DNA of 64,000 nucleotides. Origin: Alphaproteobacteria bacterium. GTDB taxonomy: Bacteria > Pseudomonadota > Alphaproteobacteria > Bin95. A model generated the notes under the pieces. It did no database searches and was not told the origin of the DNA. It saw nothing but the letters and a program-made list of their open reading frames with translations. Where the stretch lies: contig JAJDYL010000103.1 of NCBI GenBank assembly GCA_022825195.1, forward strand, positions 7,874-71,873, written 5' to 3'. The position numbers and the translations under genes were made by a program. Shown piece by piece: positions 13,857 through 22,892 of this stretch (position 1 is its first letter; each line of letters opens with the position of its first letter).

Positions 13857-13985
13857 GACAGGTGGGATTTTAGGCCGAACCGCAACCTTATAGAAGCCGG
13901 GGCGCGGTTCAGCCGCATTCACTCTGGCGGCGGACGCTCCGGGCCGGAGTTCCCGTCCATCGCATCTGGAGATCGGGCCCGGCGC

Positions 13986-14816
13986 ATGGCAGGCTGGGCG
14001 GCGATGACGTTCGTTTCCAACGCCCGCATGTATGCCGTCAGCCCCGCGGCCGAGGCGGAGTGGAGGAAGTTGATCGCCCATGTGGCCGGGGACGCCGGCG
14101 TGTCCTTCGACTATCTGGCCTACAAGGCGCCGCAGCCTCTCGAAGACCTCTGGCGCCGTCCTGATCTCGGCTGCGTGCAGATGTGCGGCTACCCCATCGC
14201 GCTCGGGGTCGCCGAGGTCGCGCCGCTGGCTTCGCCCGTGCCCGCCGCGCCCTGGGCGGAGGAGAAGGCGGTTTACCGGAGCGACCTGATCGTGCGGAAG
14301 GACGCGCCATACCGCACGCTTGAAGACACGTTCGGCGGCACGGTCGGCTGGACCGTCGAGCACTCGCATTCGGGCTTCAACGCGCTGCGCCATCATCTCC
14401 TGCCCTGGCTCGGCGGCGGCCGGGATCGGCTTTACCGGCAGTCGGTCGGCCATCTGGTCACGGCGCGGCGCATCCTCGACAGCGTGCTGGACGGCACGGT
14501 CGATGTCGGGCCGCTGGACGCTTACTGGCACATGCTGATGCGGAAATACGAGCCCGCGCTGACGGAGAGCGTCCGTATCCTCGACTCGACCGCGACCGCG
14601 CCGATGCCGGCCTTCGTCGCCGCACCGGCCTTGCCGGAGAAAACCGTCGCCCGGCTGCGCGAAGCCTTTGCGGCGGCGCATACGCGGCCCTGGTTCGGGC
14701 GGTTCCGCGAGGCGTTGCTGATCGACGGATTCGAGGCGGTGACGCGGGAGACGTTCGCTTCGACCCTGGATTGGGACCGGGCCGCCCGGGCCGCGGGATA
14801 TGCGGTGCCGGCGTGA
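13986..14816 (+). CDS. PhnD/SsuA-like periplasmic-binding-fold protein with no recognisable signal peptide
   Basis: MCGYP motif and PBP type-2 fold features; the N-terminus [14 protein letters not shown]… has no hydrophobic leader. Confidence 0.55.
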
Positions 14817-16492
14817 TGGCGGAAACCGGCATGAGCTACGATTTCGATCTCGGTCCCTGGTCGCGCAAGGTCTCGACGAGGTCGGAGGCCGCGCAGCGCT
14901 GGTTCGACCGGGGGCTGAACTGGAACTTTGCCTTCAATCACGACGAGGCGGCCGTCTGCTACCGGCGGGCGGCGGAGGCGGACCCCGCCTGCGCCATGGC
15001 CCGGTGGGGCATCGCCCATGCGATGGGTCCCTTCTACAACCGGGCATGGATCCGCTACTCGGACGCCGAGATCGCCAAGGTGCTGCCGGCCTGCCATGAG
15101 GCGGTGGAAGCCGCGCTGGCGCTCGCCGGCGGCGCAACGCCGGCCGAACGGGCGCTCATGCAGGCGCTCGCGAAGCGCTACCGGAACGGCCATGAGAGGG
15201 ACCGCGAGGTGCTGGACGCCTGGCACCGGGACTATGCCGACGCGATGCGCGAAGCCTGCCGGGCTTATCCCGACGATCCGGACATCGCCGCGCTCTATGT
15301 CGAGGCCGCGATCACCTGCACGCCCCGCCGCCTCTGGAACCTGAAGACCGGCGAGCCCGACCCGGACGCGCGCACCATGGAGGCGATGCCGGTGCTGGAG
15401 CGCTGGATGGACCGGATCGGGCGGGGCGGCGCGATGCATCCGGGCATTCCGCACATGTATATCCACACGCTGGAAATGTCGCCCTTTCCCGAGCGCGCCC
15501 TGAACGCCGCCGACATGCTGCGCGGCTACGCGCCCGACGCGGGCCACATGGAGCACATGCCGGCGCATATCTACGTGCTCTGCGGCGACTATGCGCAGTC
15601 CGTGTCGCAAAGCGAACGCGCGGTCCGCGCCGACGACAAATATCTCACCTATGCCGGGGACGCGAACTTCTACACCACCGCCCGCTGCCACGATCTGCAC
15701 CTGTTCATGTATGCGGCCATGTTCCTCGGCCAATGCGGCAGGGCCTCCCACGCGGCCGGGCGGATCCGCAAGGTGGCAAGGTCCGAACTGATCGCACGGA
15801 GCGCGCCCTTCATGGCGTCGATCCTGGACGGCTATTCCGCCATGTGCACGCATGTCGCGGTCCGCTTCGGCCGTTGGCGCGAGCTTGCCGCGTCGCCGGG
15901 GCCGGAGGACGCCTCGCTGCGCCCGATCGGCGTCGCGATGCACGCCTACGGACAGGGGGTGGCGCATGCCGCGCTCGGCGATATCGACGCGGCGGAGGCG
16001 GCCCGGTCGGCGTTCGATGAGGCCGCCACGGCGATTCCCGAGGACGCGATCTTCCTCAGCAACACGGTGCGCGACATGCTCCGCGTCGGCGAGGCCATGC
16101 TGGAGGGCGAGCTGGAATACCGGAAAGGCAACCACGACCGCGCCTTCGCCAGCCTGAGCCTCGCGGTCGCGCGCGACGACTCGCTCAACTACACCGAGCC
16201 CTGGGCCTGGATGCATCCGCCGCGCCATGCGCTGGGCGCGCTGCTGGCCGAGCAGGGCCTGTTCCGGGAAGCCGAGGAGGTGTTCCGCGAAGACCTCGGC
16301 TACAGCCGGGGCCTGCCGCGCTGCTGCCGGCATCCCGACAATGTCTGGGCGCTGCAGGGGCTGGTCGAGTGCGTGGAGCGGGCCGGCGGCGCCGACGAGC
16401 TCCGCCTGCTGCGGCAGAGGCTGGACTTCGCAAAAGCGCGCGCCGACATTCCCATCGACAGTTCCTGCTTCTGCCGCGCCGCCGCCGCGTAG
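14816..16492 (+). CDS. hypothetical all-alpha (TPR-like) His-rich protein
   Basis: Start is an ATG that overlaps the upstream stop by 1 nt; [11 protein letters not shown] and [11 protein letters not shown] histidine clusters; I recognise no family. Confidence 0.55.
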
Positions 16493-16498
16493 CGCGGA

Positions 16499-17219
16499 TC
16501 AGGTCTCCAGGCCGAAGGTCTCGCGCACTTCCGCCGCCATCGCCTCCACCATCGCCGCAAGCGCAGCGCCGCCCTTCGCGGCCGTGGCGCGGGTGGGGCG
16601 GCCGACCGTGCCGGAGCGGCTGTAGGCGGCGAGGCCCCTGACGGCGAGTTGCGGGCGCTCGGCGAGTTCGTCGGCGGCGTCCTCCATGCGGACCAGTTGC
16701 GGCCAGCGGTGGAGCAGGACGGAGGTTTCGTATTCGCCGGCATGCATGTCGTCATGGACGCTCGTCTCGATGCCGGCGGCGGCGAAGGCGGCCTCCTGGA
16801 TATGCCGGCCGGGGCCCAGCCAGACGCGCGGGCCGTCGAGATTGGCCTCGCGCGCCAGATGCGCCAGCACGAGGTTGCCGCCATGCGCGTTGACGACGGC
16901 GAGCCGCTCTATGCCGGAGTGCGCAAGGCTCGCGCGGATGTCGCCGACGACGGAAGCGAGCGTGCCCGCCGCCAGCCAGACCGTGCCCGGAAAGCCCGCA
17001 TGCTCCTGCGAGCAGGAGACGGGCAGCACCGGCAGCAGCAGTCCGCCGGTCTTCTCCGCGAGGTCGGCCGCGAGCGCGCCCGCGATCAGGCTGTCGGTCG
17101 CGAGCGGCAGGTGGCTCCCATGTTGCTCGAACGCGCCCACCGGCAGCACGGCGAGTTCGGGCCGGCCGACATCGGCGGCGGTGCGGGCGAGGTGGGCTTC
17201 CGGTAGCATGCCCGCCATC
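16499..17219 (-). CDS. creatininase-family amidohydrolase
   Basis: …LPVGAFEQHGSHLPLATDSLIA…VVNAHGGN…EYETS…; trimmed from the 796-aa ORF to the MAGMLPEAH… start. Confidence 0.8.
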
Positions 17220-17239
17220 CTATCAGGAGGCGCCGCCCG

Positions 17240-18187
17240 ATGCTCCTGCCGACCTCGACGCTCTTCGAAAGCGGCCCGCTCGAACTCGAACGCGGCGGGA
17301 GGCTGGAGCGGCTCGCCGTCGCCTATGAGAGCTGGGGCCGGCTGGACGCGGACGGCGGCAATGCGATCCTGGTCGCGCACGGCTACACCTCGAACCCGCA
17401 CGCCGCCGGCCCCGGCGGCTGGTGGGAGCCGCTGATCGGGCCGGGCCGGGCCATCGATACGGACCGCTGGTGCGTCGTCTGCCCGAACATGATCGGCTCC
17501 GCCTACGGCAGCAGCGGGCCGGTCCGGGGCCGGCCCTTCCCCGACATCGAGGTGGCCGACATGGTGGCGGCGCAGGGCCGGCTGCTGGAGCATCTGGATG
17601 TGCGCCGGCTGGCGGCGGTTATCGGCTTCTCCTATGGCGGCCACCTCGCCTTCGAATGGGGCAGCCGCCATCCCGACCGGGTGCGCGCGCTCGTGCCGGT
17701 CGCAACGGGCATTGCCGGCCGGATGGGAGAGGAGCGCGCGCTGGCGCTGGAGGCGCGCTTCGCCGGCCTCGACGACCCGACGGAGGAGCTGGAGCGGCTC
17801 AGGTTCGAGACGCTGGAGCGCTACGGGGACCTCGACTGGTTCTCCGACCGGCTCGGCTCCCGCGAGGCGGGGCGGCGGGAGGTGGAGGCGCTGGCGCGGA
17901 AATGGGCGCGGGAGTTCACGCCGGAGTCGCTGGTCGTGCTGGCGCGCGCAGCCGCCCGCTTCGATGGGCGGCCGCGCACCGGCGACATTCGCGCGCCGCT
18001 GCTCTATGTGCTCTCCTGCAGCGACGCGCTGTTCCCGCCTGCGCTTGCCGAACCGACGCTCGCGCTGCTGGGCTCCAATGCTTCGTATTTCGAGATCGAC
18101 AGCCTCTACGGCCACCGCGCCCCAAGCCGCGACTGGGCCAAATGGGCGCCGACGCTGGCGGCATTCCTTCGCGAACATGCGGGTTGA
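17240..18187 (+). CDS. alpha/beta hydrolase of the homoserine O-acetyltransferase (MetX)-like family, short form
   Basis: …ILVAHGYTSNPH…GWW…VVCPNMIGSAYGSSGP…GFSYGG…; RBS AGGAGG. Confidence 0.75.
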   Translation: MLLPTSTLFESGPLELERGGRLERLAVAYESWGRLDADGGNAILVAHGYTSNPHAAGPGGWWEPLIGPGRAIDTDRWCVVCPNMIGSAYGSSGPVRGRPFPDIEVADMVAAQGRLLEHLDVRRLAAVIGFSYGGHLAFEWGSRHPDRVRALVPVATGIAGRMGEERALALEARFAGLDDPTEELERLRFETLERYGDLDWFSDRLGSREAGRREVEALARKWAREFTPESLVVLARAAARFDGRPRTGDIRAPLLYVLSCSDALFPPALAEPTLALLGSNASYFEIDSLYGHRAPSRDWAKWAPTLAAFLREHAG

Positions 18188-19563: not shown

Positions 19564-20772
19564 TCAGAGAGCGCCGGCCTGCTTCAGGTCCGCCACTTCC
19601 GCTGGCGACATGTCCAGCAGTTCGCCCAGCACCGCTTCGCTGTGCTCGCCGAGCAGCGGCGCCCGCGCCACCTCCATCGTCTCGCCGCCGAAGCGCACCG
19701 GCCACGCCGGCACCACCACCGCGCCCCGGTCCGGATGCTCGACGGTCTGCATGATGCCCCGCCGGTGCATGTCCTCGCTCGAGATCAGGTCCTTGATGTC
19801 GAACACCGCGCCGGCGGGCACGCCGGCGCTGCCGATGGCCTCCATCACCTCCTGCTTCGTGCGCTCGCGCGTCCAGGCCGCGAGGTTCTCCTCGATCTCC
19901 GCCTTGTGCTCGATGCGCTTGTGTCCGTTGCAGAAGCGCGGATCGGCCAGCATGTCCTCGCGCCCGATGGCCTTGCAGACGCGCTCCCAATGGACCGTCA
20001 GGTCGCGGGCGACGAAGATGAAGCAATAGTCGTTCGGCCCGCCGCCCTTGCAGGGGAAGAGCCCGCCCGGCGCGCCCGAAGCCACGGAGTTGCCGAGCCG
20101 CGGCGCCGGTTCCTGCATCATCGGCTGGCGCGAGAAGGTGACCCGGCAGTAGTTCGTCATCGCGTCCTGCATCGCGACCTGGAGATGCTGGCCGCGCCCG
20201 GTGCGCTCGCGCTGGAAGAGCGCGGAGAGGATCGAGACGCACATGTGCAGGCCGGTGCCGGTATCGCCGATGGTGGCGCCGGGGCGGATCGGCACCCCGT
20301 CCGGCATGCCGGTGATGCTCATCACGCCGCCCGTGGCCTGCGCGATCATGTCGAAGGAGAGGTATTTGGCGTAGGGGCCGTCGGTGGCGAAGCCCTTGAC
20401 CTGCGCGAAGACGAGGCGCGGGTTGAGCTTCTGCAGCTCGTCCCAGCCGAAGCCCAGCCGCTCGATGGCGCCCGGCGCGAAATTCTCGATCAGCACGTCG
20501 GCCCTGGCGATCAGGCGGCGCAACAGGTCCTTGCCGCTCTCCTCCTTGAGGTTGCAGGTGATCGAGCGCTTGTTGCAGTTGAGCAGGATGAAATAGAGCG
20601 AATCCATGTCCGGCCGCTCGGATATGGCGAGCCGGCCCTGGTCGCCGCGCCGGGGCTCCTCGACCTTGATGACATTGGCGCCGTGCCACGCCAGCGCCTC
20701 CGTGCAGGACGGGCCTGCCTCGAATTGGGTCAGGTCGAGAACGGTAATGCCCGCCAGCGGCGCATCGCCCAT
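19564..20772 (-). CDS. CoA-transferase family III (CaiB/BaiF/Frc-like)
   Basis: …ITVLDLTQFEAGPSCTEALAWHGANVIKVE…; trimmed to MGDAPLAG…, with a GGAGGA RBS. Confidence 0.9.
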   Translation of the reverse strand: MGDAPLAGITVLDLTQFEAGPSCTEALAWHGANVIKVEEPRRGDQGRLAISERPDMDSLYFILLNCNKRSITCNLKEESGKDLLRRLIARADVLIENFAPGAIERLGFGWDELQKLNPRLVFAQVKGFATDGPYAKYLSFDMIAQATGGVMSITGMPDGVPIRPGATIGDTGTGLHMCVSILSALFQRERTGRGQHLQVAMQDAMTNYCRVTFSRQPMMQEPAPRLGNSVASGAPGGLFPCKGGGPNDYCFIFVARDLTVHWERVCKAIGREDMLADPRFCNGHKRIEHKAEIEENLAAWTRERTKQEVMEAIGSAGVPAGAVFDIKDLISSEDMHRRGIMQTVEHPDRGAVVVPAWPVRFGGETMEVARAPLLGEHSEAVLGELLDMSPAEVADLKQAGAL

Positions 20773-20799
20773 CGGTTTCCTCCTTGCTATGCTTGCCGG
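20773..20799. promoter_or_regulatory. 27-bp divergent intergenic region with nested inverted repeats (GCTTGC…GCAAGC; CCGGATG…CATCCGG) that extend into the downstream start codon
   Basis: Read directly from tatGCTTGCCGGATGatacaGCAAGCCATCCGGaatg. Confidence 0.5.
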
Positions 20800-22140
20800 A
20801 TGATACAGCAAGCCATCCGGAATGTTCCACTGACCGGGGCCGACCCGGTGTTTCCGACACCCTACCGCATCGGCGAGGCGGGCGCCGTCGCGATCGCCGC
20901 CTCGGCGCAGGCCGCCGCCGATTTCTGGGAGCTGCGCACCGGCGAGCGCCAGTCGGTCGAGGTGGACCGCCGCCATGCGGCCGCGGCCATGCGGTCGGCC
21001 ACCTACCTGAAGATCGACGGCGTCGCGCCGTCCTCCTTGTGGGACCCGTTCTCGGGCCTTTATCCGACCGGCGACGGGCGGCATGTCTTCCTGCACTGCA
21101 ACTTCCCTCACCACCGCGACGGGATGCTGGCGCTGCTCGGCGCGAAGGCGGAACAGGGTGCGTTTACGCAAGCGGTCGCGGCGCGCGGCGGGCAGGAATT
21201 CGAGGACGCGATAGCTGCCGCCGGCCTCTGCGGCGCGATGACGCGCACGCCGGAGGAATGGGCCGCCCATCCGCACGGCCGGACGGTCGCGGCGCTGCCG
21301 CCCGTGACCATCGAGCGCATCGGCGGCGGGCCGCCCATGCCGCCGCGCGGCGGCGAAAGGCCGCTGGACGGCATTCGCGTGCTGGACCTGACGCGCGTGC
21401 TCGCCGGGCCGACCTGCGGGCGCACGCTGGCCGAGCACGGCGCCGACGTCATGCGGATCGCGGGGCCGCACCTGCCCTTCGCGCCGACGCTCGTGATGGA
21501 CACCGGCCACGGCAAGCTCTCCGCCTTCGTCGATCTGCGAGACGAGCGCGGCCGGGCGCGGCTTCGCGCGCTGGCTTCGCAAGCCGATGTGTTCGTCCAG
21601 AGCTACCGCCCGGGCACGCTGGCCGCGCGCGGCTTCGGCCCCGGCGATATCGGCCCCGGCAAGGTCTATGTCTCGCTCTCGGCCTACGGCCACGAGGGGC
21701 CGTTCGCCATGCGCCGGGGCTTCGACAGCATCCTGCAGAACGTCTCCGGCATGTCCACGGTGCAGGGCAGCCCGGAGGCCCCGCGCAACCTGCCGGTGCA
21801 GCCGCTCGACTATTGCGCCGGCTATCTGGCCGCCTGGGGCGTCGTGACGGCCCTGCTGCGCCGGGCGGAGGAGGGCGGAAGCTGGCATGTGCAGCTCTCG
21901 CTTGCCGGCATGGCGGAATGGATCAAGGGCATGGGCCTCGTGGAAGACTGGCAGGACGCGCCCGCGGAACTGCCGCCGGAGGAGTTGGCGGCGATCACGA
22001 TGGAGAGCGACACGCCGCACGGCCGGCTGACCCATCTGGCTCCCATTGCGCAGATGTCCCGCACGCCGCCGCACTGGGCGCGGCCCGCCGTCCCGCTCGG
22101 CTCCAACGATCCCGTCTGGCCGGAGATGCTCGCCGCATGA
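20800..22140 (+). CDS. CoA-transferase family III (CaiB/BaiF-like), long form
   Basis: …IRVLDLTRVLAGPTCGRTLAEHGADVMRI…; trimmed from ORF 19642..22140 to MIQQAIRN…. Confidence 0.85.
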   Translation: MIQQAIRNVPLTGADPVFPTPYRIGEAGAVAIAASAQAAADFWELRTGERQSVEVDRRHAAAAMRSATYLKIDGVAPSSLWDPFSGLYPTGDGRHVFLHCNFPHHRDGMLALLGAKAEQGAFTQAVAARGGQEFEDAIAAAGLCGAMTRTPEEWAAHPHGRTVAALPPVTIERIGGGPPMPPRGGERPLDGIRVLDLTRVLAGPTCGRTLAEHGADVMRIAGPHLPFAPTLVMDTGHGKLSAFVDLRDERGRARLRALASQADVFVQSYRPGTLAARGFGPGDIGPGKVYVSLSAYGHEGPFAMRRGFDSILQNVSGMSTVQGSPEAPRNLPVQPLDYCAGYLAAWGVVTALLRRAEEGGSWHVQLSLAGMAEWIKGMGLVEDWQDAPAELPPEELAAITMESDTPHGRLTHLAPIAQMSRTPPHWARPAVPLGSNDPVWPEMLAA

Positions 22141-22892
22141 GCCGCCTTGCCCGCGGCCCCGGCGCCGCGATCCACTACGAGACTCACGGAGAGGGCCCGG
22201 CGGTCCTGCTCACCCACGGCTTCGGGCTGACGGCGCGCATGTGGGCGGGCCAGGTCGAGGCGCTGGCGCCGTCCCACCGGCTCATCCTCTGGGACCTGCG
22301 CGGCCACGGCCGCAGCGACTCGCCGGAGGATGGTGCGCTTTACGACCCGGAAGCCTGCGTGGCCGACATGGCGGCGCTGCTCGATGCGGAAGGCGTCGAA
22401 CGGGCGGTCGTCGGCGGGCTCTCGCTCGGCGGCTACCTGTCGCTGGCCTTCCATCTCCGCCACCCGGAGCGGGTGCGGGCGCTGATGCTGTTCGACTGCG
22501 GCCCCGGCTTCCGCCGCGACGAGCCGCGCGAGGCCTGGAACGAGCGGGCGAAGCAGCGGGGCGAACGGATCGCCGCCCGCGAGCCGCGCGTCCTGGAGAG
22601 CCTTGAGCCGGACGGCCACCGCGATCTCGCCGGCGTCGCCCGCGCGGCCTGCAGCATGATGCGCCACCGGGACGGCAGCGTGCTCGAATCGCTGCCCTCG
22701 ATCCGGGCGCTGGCACTGGTGCTGGCAGGCGAGCGCGACACCCCCTTCCTGGCCGGCATCGACTACATGGCCCGGAAGATTCCGGACGCAGAGAAAATCG
22801 TTCTGCCGGACGCCGGCCACACGTCCAATCTCGACAATCCCGCGGCCTTCAACGCCGCGGTTTCCGGATTCCTCGCCCGACTGCCTGCATGA
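22137..22892 (+). CDS. alpha/beta hydrolase
   Basis: HGFG…GLSLGGY nucleophile elbow; ATGA overlap with the upstream gene. Confidence 0.85.
   Translation: MSRLARGPGAAIHYETHGEGPAVLLTHGFGLTARMWAGQVEALAPSHRLILWDLRGHGRSDSPEDGALYDPEACVADMAALLDAEGVERAVVGGLSLGGYLSLAFHLRHPERVRALMLFDCGPGFRRDEPREAWNERAKQRGERIAAREPRVLESLEPDGHRDLAGVARAACSMMRHRDGSVLESLPSIRALALVLAGERDTPFLAGIDYMARKIPDAEKIVLPDAGHTSNLDNPAAFNAAVSGFLARLPA

What the first reader, a model, noticed from the sequence alone, without database searches (positions are those of the whole stretch)
13986..16492. Leaderless PhnD/SsuA-type binding-fold protein coupled (1-nt overlap) to an unassignable His-rich alpha-helical protein
The 276-aa product has the MCGYP-containing periplasmic-binding-protein fold of phosphonate/sulfonate SBPs, but it starts directly with the mature domain ([14 protein letters not shown]…) and has no signal peptide. 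The next gene (ATG inside …TGATG…) encodes a 558-aa all-alpha protein with paired His clusters ([22 protein letters not shown]) that I cannot place. No ABC permease or ATPase is nearby. A cytoplasmic PBP-fold protein paired with a possible metal-binding TPR-like partner would be unusual. It could be an enzyme (as in the ThiY/Thi5 precedent) or a sensor pair rather than a transporter.
Basis: partly seen in the sequence, partly recalled or inferred. Interest (0 to 1): 0.5.

Follow-up and report, generated by a model that had tools for sequence, protein, structure and literature searches.

The report
Cytoplasmic binding-protein plus His-cluster helical partner
Two overlapping genes encode a leaderless relative of periplasmic phosphonate/arsenite-binding proteins and an uncharacterised all-helical protein with an invariant cluster of histidines; the pair recurs in many bacteria and is fused into one protein in a eukaryote, so it is a real, unstudied cytoplasmic module, probably a metal-dependent enzyme and not a transporter.

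Summary
Gene A (14004/13986-14816) is a PF12974 protein with no room for a signal peptide. Gene B (14816-16492) starts inside TGATG and is an all-helical TPR-like solenoid with no family assignment. The pairing is not chance. An A-like gene lies within 8 kb of B in 49 of 80 species-level genomes, and a eukaryotic contig encodes an A-B fusion.

A is closest to the arsenic-oxyanion sensors AioX/ArrX. It keeps five of seven AioX pocket residues, including the ligand-binding Cys.

B belongs to a large family found in bacteria, fungi and a protist. Residues H208, H213, H217, E220, H244, H247, M248, H251 and H292 stay conserved (H295 nearly so) down to 28% identity. I read this as a metal site. About 40% of relatives carry secretion leaders.

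Related loci place B in HutC-regulated TRAP-transporter operons, beside hut genes and once beside an ergothionase-like lyase. Others place it in metal-homeostasis loci.

Best reading, at moderate confidence: a two-subunit cytoplasmic metalloprotein, with A as the ligand-binding subunit and B as the His-cluster subunit, that processes a small anionic, possibly histidine-derived or metal-chelating, metabolite. Substrate, metal and chemistry remain unproven.

The parts
13858..14003 (.). Intergenic region between divergent uvrA (start at 13857, minus strand) and gene A. It presumably holds the promoter of the A-B unit. It also contains the alternative start ATG 13986.
   Evidence: Sequence read. 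No sigma-70 consensus was found, so the promoter is inferred, not shown.
14004..14816 (+). Gene A: leaderless 270-aa PF12974 (PhnD/PtxB/AioX-type) binding-fold protein. The longest possible ORF starts at 13986 (276 aa).
   Evidence: PF12974 E 6.4e-21. Best solved relatives are AioX (3.5e-13) and ArrX. Homologs are mostly 270 aa.
14181..14195 (+). MCGYP motif of A. C61 is equivalent to the arsenite-binding Cys106 of AioX.
   Evidence: Alignment mapped onto the pocket residues listed in PMC5908839. C61, G62 and P64 are invariant across A, A' and A'' and the fusion, at 20-86% identity. Coordinates verified.
14361..14375 (+). HSHSG loop of A. S121 and S123 are equivalent to the anion-binding Ser161 and Ser163 of AioX and to the S-T-S loop of PhnD.
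   Evidence: S121, S123 and G124 invariant.
14517..14519 (+). D172 of A, equivalent to the AioX-specific pocket residue Asp210.
   Evidence: invariant.
14814..14818 (+). TGATG: the stop codon of A overlaps the start codon of B by one base (translational coupling).
   Evidence: The same 1-nt overlap geometry (A end to B start offset of 3) is seen in L004, L006, L007 and L009-L013.
14816..16492 (+). Gene B: 558-aa leaderless all-helical TPR-like solenoid of an uncharacterised family.
15437..15475 (+). B residues 208-220, [13 protein letters not shown]: H208, H213, H217 and E220.
   Evidence: Invariant in alignments A1 and A3. Kept in 28-33% identical relatives and in both leaderless and leader-bearing family members. 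Coordinates verified.
15545..15568 (+). B residues 244-251, HMEHMPAH: H244, H247, M248 and H251.
15689..15700 (+). B residues 292-295, HDLH: H292 and H295.
16466..16474 (+). C-terminal CFC (C551-x-C553) of B.
   Evidence: Invariant in A1 and A3. Present in 92-93% of leaderless but only 54-57% of leader-bearing relatives. Coordinates verified.

Best explanation
A and B form one cytoplasmic functional unit, most likely a two-subunit metalloprotein that processes a small anionic metabolite rather than transporting it.

A is a binding-protein-fold subunit. Its cleft keeps an AioX-like pocket: Cys61, Tyr91, Ser121, Ser123 and Asp172.

B is a 13-hairpin TPR-like solenoid. Three successive inner helices carry an invariant constellation: H208/H213/H217/E220, H244/H247/M248/H251 and H292/H295. 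I interpret this as a mono- or binuclear metal centre. R350, E432, R470 and H471 would be substrate contacts. The C-terminal Cys-x-Cys may be a metal-acquisition tail.

Shown: both proteins lack leaders, the genes are coupled, the pair is conserved, the fusion exists, and these residues are conserved.

Inferred: metal binding, catalysis, and the A-B complex.

Most speculative: the substrate class. Contexts in related genomes point to a histidine-derived imidazole compound (urocanate-like, or a histidine betaine or thiohistidine) and/or a metal chelate.
For: Coupling
- There is a 1-nt stop/start overlap here and in close relatives.
- An A-like gene lies within 8 kb of B in 49 of 80 species-level genomes, in four different arrangements.
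- A and B identities fall in parallel across the groups.
- A single-ORF A-B fusion without a leader sits on a eukaryotic contig.

Not transport
- Neither protein has a leader or a membrane segment.
- The window has no permease or transport ATPase nearby.
- In related operons a separate periplasmic DctP receptor is present alongside the cytoplasmic A'.

A pocket
- The best sequence and fold matches are AioX and ArrX.
- C61, S121, S123, G124 and D172 are invariant down to 20% identity.
- Five of the seven AioX pocket residues are kept.

B metal site
- In A3, H208, H213, H217, H244, H247, H251, H292, H471, E220, E432, M144, M248, R350, R470 and CxC are invariant across bacteria and fungi at 32-66% identity.
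- The central His, Glu and Met set survives at 28-33% identity and in secreted relatives.
- The spacings are i/i+3/i+4 on predicted helices 210-219, 243-255 and 286-303.
- Homologs lie beside a CDF transporter, ArsR, a P-type ATPase and CueR in Acinetobacter; beside ArsR/SmtB in Rhodococcus; beside a tyrosinase and an MNIO enzyme in Burkholderia; and beside a ZnuB-type ABC-3 permease in a metagenome contig.

Enzyme-like features
- Mean identity across phyla is 69%.
- There are fusions to alpha/beta hydrolases.
- B is placed in catabolic operons with transporters and oxygenases.

Histidine link
- The regulators next to A' pass the HutC equivalog cutoff in three lineages (247-268 bits against a cutoff of 220).
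- hutUHIG and hutF flank the locus in Paracoccus saliphilus.
- hutF or hutI is near B in L043, L060 and L062.
- An MIO-less lyase in L055 has ergothionase as its best solved relative.
Against:
- About 30 of 80 genomes show B without an A-like gene within 8 kb, and fungi appear to have B alone. A is therefore an accessory, not an obligate partner.
- In this window and in its closest relatives the pair sits among unrelated genes. The hut/TRAP evidence comes from homologs with only 59-65% (B) and 35-43% (A) identity.
- The contexts are heterogeneous (hut, betaine ABC, TTT, PTS, metal islands). The ergothionase-like lyase occurs in one locus only.
- The AF2 model of A is poor (pLDDT 58.6).
Confidence: 0.45

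Rival explanations
1. Metal trafficking or buffering without catalysis. B would be a His/Met/Cys metal-binding protein (Zn or Cu) that stores, buffers or hands over metal. A, through its thiolate Cys, would bind a metal(loid) or a metal-histidine or metallophore complex and pass it to B.
For: - The invariant residues include His, Met and a C-terminal CxC.
- B homologs sit beside a CDF exporter, ArsR, a P-type ATPase and CueR; beside ArsR/SmtB regulators; beside a ZnuB-type ABC-3 permease; and beside a tyrosinase, DUF2182 and an MNIO enzyme.
- Secreted lipoprotein-like forms exist.
- A keeps the arsenite-binding Cys of AioX.
- The hut linkage could reflect a histidine-metal pool. That link rests on my own knowledge of the Acinetobacter ZigA/hut system and was not tested here.
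Against: - Conservation along the whole length is very high, and invariant Arg, Glu, Trp and Asn lie outside the His cluster. This is more typical of an enzyme active site than of a metal buffer.
- B is embedded in catabolic operons with TRAP, TTT or betaine transporters and oxygenases.
- B is fused to alpha/beta hydrolases.
- The metal contexts involve B only, never A.
Confidence: 0.22
2. Cytoplasmic sensor or regulatory pair. A would sense a ligand, as AioX does for AioS. B, as a TPR scaffold, would transmit the signal by protein-protein contacts to some other partner.
For: - A's closest characterised relatives are sensor-coupled binding proteins (AioX, ArrX).
- B's structural neighbours are partner-binding scaffolds and the Rap, NprR and AimR quorum-sensing receptors.
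- In Skermanella a B-like gene lies next to a histidine kinase.
Against: - Neither protein has an output domain.
- No kinase or DNA-binding partner is conserved nearby: only A recurs across lineages in the neighbour clustering.
- Scaffolding does not explain eight or more invariant His residues.
- Where a regulator is present it is a complete HutC-type repressor with its own effector domain.
Confidence: 0.1
3. Ligand shuttle of the BstB/BstC or TatP/TatT type. This would be a binding protein plus a TPR-like protein that pass a hydrophobic or organic-acid ligand between membranes or to a transporter.
For: - There are precedents for a PF12974 protein working with a TPR-like protein: BstB and BstC bind sterols (PMC10942540).
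- BstB (7t1m) appears among A's fold matches.
- Related loci carry TRAP transporters, P450s and membrane di-iron oxygenases.
Against: - Both proteins here are cytoplasmic, whereas the precedents are periplasmic.
- The A pocket keeps polar anion-binding residues.
- The related TRAP systems have their own DctP receptor.
Confidence: 0.05
4. Artefact: an ordinary periplasmic binding protein with a mis-read start, or a decaying orphan gene next to an unrelated repeat protein.
For: None beyond the generic PF12974 annotation that sources give to homologs.
Against: - No upstream start is possible.
- Hundreds of homologs have the same 270-aa leaderless length.
- Purifying conservation is strong (73% mean identity for A, 69% for B).
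- The pair is conserved across genomes, and a fusion exists.
Confidence: 0.02

Closest known systems
AioX / ArrX / ArxX arsenic-oxyanion binding proteins (PF12974 subfamily; PDB 6esk, 6eu7, 8ed5, 6x6b)
   Same: They are the best sequence and fold matches to A. Both have the type II binding-protein fold. A shares the CGYP Cys (AioX Cys106), Tyr131, Ser161, Ser163 and Asp210 equivalents.
   Different: AioX is periplasmic and signals to the AioS kinase. A is leaderless, has no kinase neighbour, lacks the His192 and Tyr88 equivalents, and is coupled or fused to B. Identity is only 17-23% in the Foldseek alignments.
PhnD / PtxB / HtxB phosphonate, phosphite and hypophosphite ABC-transporter binding proteins
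   Same: Same Pfam family and fold. Same Ser-x-Ser-Gly anion loop.
   Different: A scores far below the NCBIfam cutoffs (TIGR01098: 40 against 112 bits; PhnD equivalog: 33 against 261). It has no signal peptide and no PhnC/PhnE neighbours. A has Cys where E. coli PhnD has Gly.
BstB-BstC (Methylococcus sterol binders) and TatP-TatT (Treponema TPR-associated TRAP system)
   Same: Each pairs a binding-protein-fold protein with an all-helical TPR-like protein. BstB is PF12974.
   Different: Those pairs are periplasmic (TatT is described as a lipoprotein), and BstC and TatT are about 300-aa PF16811 proteins. B is 558 aa, leaderless, has no PF16811 match, and carries an invariant His cluster.
Cytoplasmic enzymes built on the binding-protein fold (Thi5/NMT1 HMP-P synthase; MqnA/MqnD)
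   Same: A leaderless binding-protein fold used inside the cell.
   Different: A does not belong to those families by sequence: it has no PF09084 or PF02621 hit. Those enzymes do not need a TPR-like partner.
Large TPR scaffolds that cradle a catalytic partner (Naa15 in NatA, TTC7B in the PI4KIIIa complex), and Rap/NprR receptors
   Different: There is no specific sequence relationship, only about 10-13% identity. None has the His/Glu/Met constellation that defines the B family.

Membership tests
PF12974 Phosphonate-bd (PhnD/PtxB/AioX-type binding proteins) | Match to the family model and a type II binding-protein fold | tested here: met
   Pfam 75.3 bits against a cutoff of 27, covering profile positions 12-240 of 242. 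Foldseek top hits are AioX, ArrX, PhnD, HtxB and PtxB (from a low-confidence model).
PF12974 Phosphonate-bd (PhnD/PtxB/AioX-type binding proteins) | Export signal and periplasmic location | tested here: not met
   The ORF cannot extend upstream of 13986. There is no hydrophobic N-terminus. Homologs are 270 aa and leaderless.
PF12974 Phosphonate-bd (PhnD/PtxB/AioX-type binding proteins) | Genomic partner is an ABC permease/ATPase (PhnCE, PtxAC) or a sensor kinase (AioS) | tested here: not met
   No such gene between 7 and 23 kb of the window. The only recurrent neighbour across 84 loci is B.
PhnD equivalog (TIGR03431) / TIGR01098 | Score above the curated cutoff | tested here: not met
   33.5 against 261.1 bits, and 39.9 against 112.05 bits.
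AioX/ArrX arsenic-oxyanion sensor subfamily | Pocket residues Tyr88, Cys106, Tyr131, Ser161, Ser163, His192 and Asp210 (PMC5908839) | tested here: inconclusive
   Five of seven are kept (C61, Y91, S121, S123, D172). The His192 position is Ala154 and the Tyr88 position is Pro43. Arsenite binding was not testable.
Tetratricopeptide repeat proteins | Repeat-model matches and an alpha-solenoid of helical hairpins | tested here: met
TatT / BstC T-component (PF16811) | Family-model match, lipoprotein signal, and partnership with a TRAP P-component | tested here: not met
Thi5/NMT1 and MqnA/MqnD binding-fold enzymes | Match to PF09084 or PF02621 | tested here: not met
   Only PF12974 was reported for A at E up to 0.1.
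Type-3 copper proteins (tyrosinase/hemocyanin) or other known His-ligated metalloenzyme folds | Family-model or fold match, with two groups of three His on a four-helix bundle | tested here: not met
Metal-binding site in B (any kind) | Spatial clustering of the ligands and bound metal | not testable with these tools
   Model coordinates are not exposed. Only sequence invariance and helix order are available.

The most novel reading that the evidence does not exclude
B founds a new class of metalloenzyme in which a TPR-type solenoid, normally a protein-binding scaffold, carries a conserved multi-histidine metal centre. A is its dedicated binding-fold substrate-capture subunit. The module is conserved from bacteria to fungi and protists, and acts on histidine-derived or metal-chelating metabolites, for example thiohistidine or histidine-betaine turnover, or metallophore processing.
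Probability: 0.3. Interest if true: 0.8.

Novelty: new variant of a known kind. Interest (0 to 1): 0.58.

Why it matters
B represents a large protein family with no model in Pfam or NCBIfam, no solved structure and no literature that I could find. It has about 1100 clusters at 50% identity with E below 1e-30 and occurs in at least 456 bacterial species, in fungi and in a protist. Yet it carries a sharply conserved His/Glu/Met/Cys signature.

If that signature is a metal centre, it would show a TPR solenoid serving as an enzyme or metal-handling core. It would also give a second use for the PhnD/AioX fold inside the cell.

The recurrent links to HutC-controlled TRAP operons, an ergothionase-like lyase and metal-resistance or uptake loci make concrete experiments possible. 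Candidate carriers are culturable marine bacteria such as Paracoccus saliphilus, Chachezhania antarctica and Thalassobaculum litoreum.

The very high cross-phylum identity among marine MAGs also suggests recent horizontal spread of a useful trait.

Tried and rejected
- Upstream start or signal peptide for A: excluded.
- Conserved neighbours other than A: clustering the ORFs of 84 loci found none shared by most loci. Neighbours shared across more than one lineage were TRAP genes, a HutC-type regulator, SDR and P450 clusters and one alpha/beta hydrolase cluster. OCD and desaturase neighbours were each confined to one group, and the rest is lineage synteny.
- Apparent 855-aa extended B in an acidobacterial locus: it is a spurious antisense extension over a gene I judged hydantoinase-like from its sequence.
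- Link between the alpha/beta hydrolase fused to some B homologs and the hydrolases in the window: only generic 27% similarity, so dropped.
- The window itself holds no hut, TRAP, OCD, desaturase or ergothionase-like genes.
- Literature: searches by family names, accession numbers, PF12974, ergothioneine and thiourocanate found nothing on this pair. An attempt to confirm the source of the MAGs by accession prefix failed.
- AF2 model of A: low confidence, used only as a fold check.
- Contexts of further distant homologs (Chondrinema, Indioceanicola, Ruegeria AD91A, Phyllobacterium, Shinella): uninformative or heterogeneous.
- Sinorhizobium hits are truncated copies.
Full report
**What is in the window**

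Gene A is the ORF 13986..14816 on the plus strand. The ORF opens directly after a stop codon. The in-frame upstream stretch has no start codon and runs into the divergent uvrA start at 13857. About 100 of the 120 best homologs are 270 aa, which points to ATG 14004 ([10 protein letters not shown]...) as the real start.

Gene B starts at ATG 14816, inside GCGTGATGGCG. Its first base is the last base of A's TGA. It ends at 16492, six bases from the stop of a convergent creatininase-family gene.

Neither protein has a hydrophobic N-terminus or a membrane segment: the highest 19-residue hydropathy is 1.36 for A and 1.25 for B. No transporter permease or ATPase lies nearby. The surrounding genes are lgt, a methyltransferase, a YfiH-type protein, uvrA, a creatininase-family gene, an alpha/beta hydrolase, a SAM methyltransferase, a histidine phosphatase and CoA-transferases.

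**Protein A**

A matches Pfam PF12974 (6.4e-21) but falls far below the NCBIfam cutoffs for PhnD and the phosphate/phosphonate binding-protein subfamily. Its best solved relatives by sequence are the arsenite sensor protein AioX (3.5e-13) and the arsenate sensor protein ArrX. The same ranking comes from a Foldseek search with a low-confidence model: AioX, ArrX, then XAC2383, PhnD, HtxB, PtxB and BstB.

I mapped the alignment onto the AioX pocket defined in PMC5908839.
- Kept in A: Cys106 (C61, in MCGYP), Tyr131 (Y91), Ser161 and Ser163 (S121, S123, in HSHSG) and Asp210 (D172).
- Replaced in A: His192 (by Ala154) and Tyr88 (by Pro43).

That paper names Cys106 and Asp210 as AioX-specific, with Gly and Asn in PhnD. 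C61, G62, P64, S121, S123, G124 and D172 are invariant in every B-associated A-like protein I aligned, down to 20% identity. A therefore most likely still binds a small anionic ligand in its cleft, with a thiol taking part.

**Protein B**

The family is large. A full scan of 1.84 billion representatives gives 1100 clusters at E below 1e-30. A scan of species-representative genomes confirmed 456 relatives. Members include Penicillium and Aspergillus proteins at about 45% identity.

In 37 diverse sequences (32-66% identity), the invariant residues are M144, H208, H213, H217, E220, H244, H247, M248, H251, H292, R350, W354, E432, R470, H471, N509, W511, C551 and C553. Relatives at 28-33% identity still keep M144, H208, H213, H217, E220, H244, H247, M248, H251, H292, H295, N509 and W511.

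The His residues sit at i/i+3/i+4 spacings on predicted helices 210-219, 243-255 and 286-303. I read this as a metal site, which is also an inference.

Of 105 full-length cluster representatives, 42 carry a hydrophobic N-terminal leader, and 12 of those have a lipobox-like cysteine. The His cluster is kept in both groups. The C-terminal CxC is kept mainly in the leaderless group. Whatever B does therefore works on both sides of the membrane. That argues against dependence on cytoplasmic cofactors.

**The pairing is real**

Eighty genome loci were fetched around B relatives. An A-like gene lies within 8 kb in 49 of them.
- Directly upstream on the same strand in 28. Eight of these have the same 1-nt overlap as here.
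- Directly downstream in six Roseobacter-type and actinobacterial loci.
- Convergent and adjacent in five.
- Inside a longer operon in seven.

A identity falls in step with B identity across these groups. Clustering all ORFs of 84 loci found no other neighbour shared by most loci.

A 921-927-aa protein fuses an A-like domain, starting without a leader, to a complete B domain. It lies on a contig whose neighbours are cilium-associated, LTV1 and Rad17-type genes, so the contig is eukaryotic. About 30 of the 80 loci, and the fungi, show B without a nearby A. B is therefore the core and A a frequent accessory.

**Functional hints from other genomes**

1. HutC-TRAP operon. Independent gene calls show a seven-gene operon in marine alphaproteobacterial contigs: GntR/UTRA regulator, PF12974 (270 aa), DctP, DctQ, DctM, FA_desaturase-type membrane oxygenase, then B. 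A P450 gene is divergent from it. The oxygenase sits directly upstream of B in eight loci.
2. OCD arrangement. Another arrangement reads OCD-family gene, then B, facing A' and the regulator, with the DctPQM genes following on B's strand. It occurs in five loci and on a Paracoccus saliphilus plasmid, where it is embedded in hutU, hutG, hutH, hutI and hutF.
3. HutC regulators. The regulators score above the HutC equivalog cutoff in three lineages (247-268 bits against a cutoff of 220).
4. hut genes. hutF or hutI lies near B in three further loci.
5. Ergothionase-like lyase. In Chachezhania antarctica the gene divergent from OCD-B is an aromatic-lyase homolog that lacks the Ala-Ser-Gly MIO motif. 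Its best solved relative is ergothionase (2e-69, against 6e-60 for histidine ammonia-lyase). MIO-less members of this family act on histidine betaines (bioRxiv 10.1101/2025.08.13.670108).
6. Betaine-type operon. A Pseudohalocynthiibacter plasmid places B after a betaine-type ABC transporter and a GST. A molybdoenzyme, a Rieske ferredoxin and a desaturase follow B.
7. Metal contexts. These involve B only.
   - Acinetobacter plasmids: after a CDF transporter, next to ArsR, a P-type ATPase and CueR.
   - A Rhodococcus plasmid: after a YeiH-type exporter, with ArsR/SmtB regulators on both sides.
   - Burkholderia stagnalis: a distant B-like gene between a tyrosinase/DUF2182 pair and a DUF692 (MNIO), methyltransferase and radical-SAM cluster.
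   - A metagenome contig: a secreted homolog directly after a ZnuB/MntB-type ABC-3 permease.

**Interpretation**

Three things are shown. A and B are cytoplasmic here. They are genetically coupled, conserved as a pair, and fused in one lineage. B's His, Glu, Met and Cys residues and A's Cys, Ser and Asp pocket are the most constrained features.

Three things are inferred. B binds metal. A and B form a complex. The complex processes a ligand held by A. I favour an enzyme over a pure metal carrier for three reasons.
- B is conserved along its whole length, with invariant Arg, Glu, Trp and Asn beyond the His cluster.
- B sits in catabolic operons beside transporters and oxygenases.
- B is fused to hydrolases.

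The substrate class is the weakest step. Histidine-derived imidazole compounds fit the HutC, hut and ergothionase-like evidence. Metal chelates would reconcile that with the metal contexts. But that evidence comes from homologs, not from this window, where the pair stands alone. The rivals are a metal-trafficking device, a sensor pair, or a BstB/BstC-like ligand shuttle. A mis-annotated periplasmic binding protein is excluded.

**Comparison with known systems and novelty**

A is a member of PF12974 by model and fold. It fails the family's usual defining context: export, and an ABC or kinase partner. It is nearest to AioX/ArrX without being one of them.

B has the TPR fold but belongs to no described family. 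It is not a TatT/BstC T-component. The pairing of a PF12974 protein with a TPR-like protein has periplasmic precedents, BstB/BstC and TatP/TatT. Leaderless binding-fold enzymes such as Thi5 and MqnA are precedents for cytoplasmic use of the fold. Neither relationship is one of homology for B. I therefore rate it a new variant of known kinds, with a realistic chance (about 0.3) that B is a new kind of metalloenzyme.

Many of the closest relatives come from marine MAGs of several phyla at 74-77% identity to this alphaproteobacterial B. That suggests horizontal spread. From their isolate names I suspect sponge-microbiome origins, but I could not verify this.

Noticed in passing
L055:5211-6773 (minus strand), Chachezhania antarctica SM1703: An aromatic-amino-acid-lyase homolog that lacks the Ala-Ser-Gly MIO motif (GSIGEADLA in its place). 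Its best solved relative is ergothionase 6s7j (2e-69). It is divergent from OCD-B and is probably a histidine-betaine or ergothioneine trimethylamine-lyase.
   Followed up: partly
L092/L093:3135-10746; also L037-L044 and L047: A seven-gene operon: HutC-type GntR, leaderless PF12974, DctP, DctQ, DctM, a 299-aa FA_desaturase-type membrane oxygenase (weak similarity to the arginine hydroxylase GntB), then B. A P450 is divergent from it. The substrate of this TRAP system is unknown.
   Followed up: partly
L096:3720-15078, Burkholderia stagnalis plasmid plas2: A RiPP-like, metal-associated cluster: tyrosinase, DUF2182, a hypothetical gene, a distant B-like TPR protein, a 77-aa ORF, DUF692 (MNIO), two methyltransferases and a radical SAM enzyme. 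Two octopine/nopaline-dehydrogenase-family genes and a PhyH gene lie upstream.
   Followed up: no
L085:7965-10698, Acinetobacter plasmids (21 records): A 38% identical B homolog directly follows a CDF transporter inside a mobile heavy-metal island (RND efflux, ArsR, P-type ATPase, CueR, HMA protein, DUF305). It is annotated only as hypothetical.
   Followed up: partly
Sinorhizobium meliloti and S. medicae megaplasmids (hits H50-H69): A truncated B-like sequence (query residues 20-331, about 36% identity) is present in 56 plasmid records and is mostly unannotated. It is probably a conserved pseudogene remnant.
   Followed up: no
Wider B family (P0274-P0388): About 40% of full-length family representatives carry N-terminal leaders, several with a lipobox-like Cys, while the His cluster is unchanged. 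The C-terminal CxC is largely confined to the leaderless forms.
   Followed up: partly
L097:8001-10766: The A-B fusion gene is a single uninterrupted ORF on an AT-rich eukaryotic contig, beside cilium-related, LTV1 and Rad17-type genes. This suggests transfer of the module into, or its ancient presence in, a flagellated protist.
   Followed up: partly
window 16499-17251 (minus strand): A creatininase-family gene (PF02633, 1e-58) converges on B with only six bases between the two stop codons. No terminator-like structure was found between them.
   Followed up: no
window 19564-22892: A family III CoA-transferase (19564-20790, minus strand; PF02515, 1e-109) faces a long plus-strand ORF (19642-22140). 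The tested 20940-22140 part of that ORF gave no Pfam hit. An alpha/beta hydrolase follows at about 22092-22892. Relatives of that hydrolase also occur near B in three loci of other lineages (L037, L042, L068).
   Followed up: partly
L007:7465-7998: In one close relative the A homolog aligns only from residue 93 onward, although B is intact. This could be a disrupted A gene or an assembly error.
   Followed up: no
L004-L036: B is 74-77% identical between this alphaproteobacterial copy and copies in MAGs labelled Gemmatimonadota, Latescibacterota, Acidobacteria and Gammaproteobacteria. That is far higher than expected for vertical descent and suggests recent cross-phylum transfer within one habitat.
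   Followed up: no
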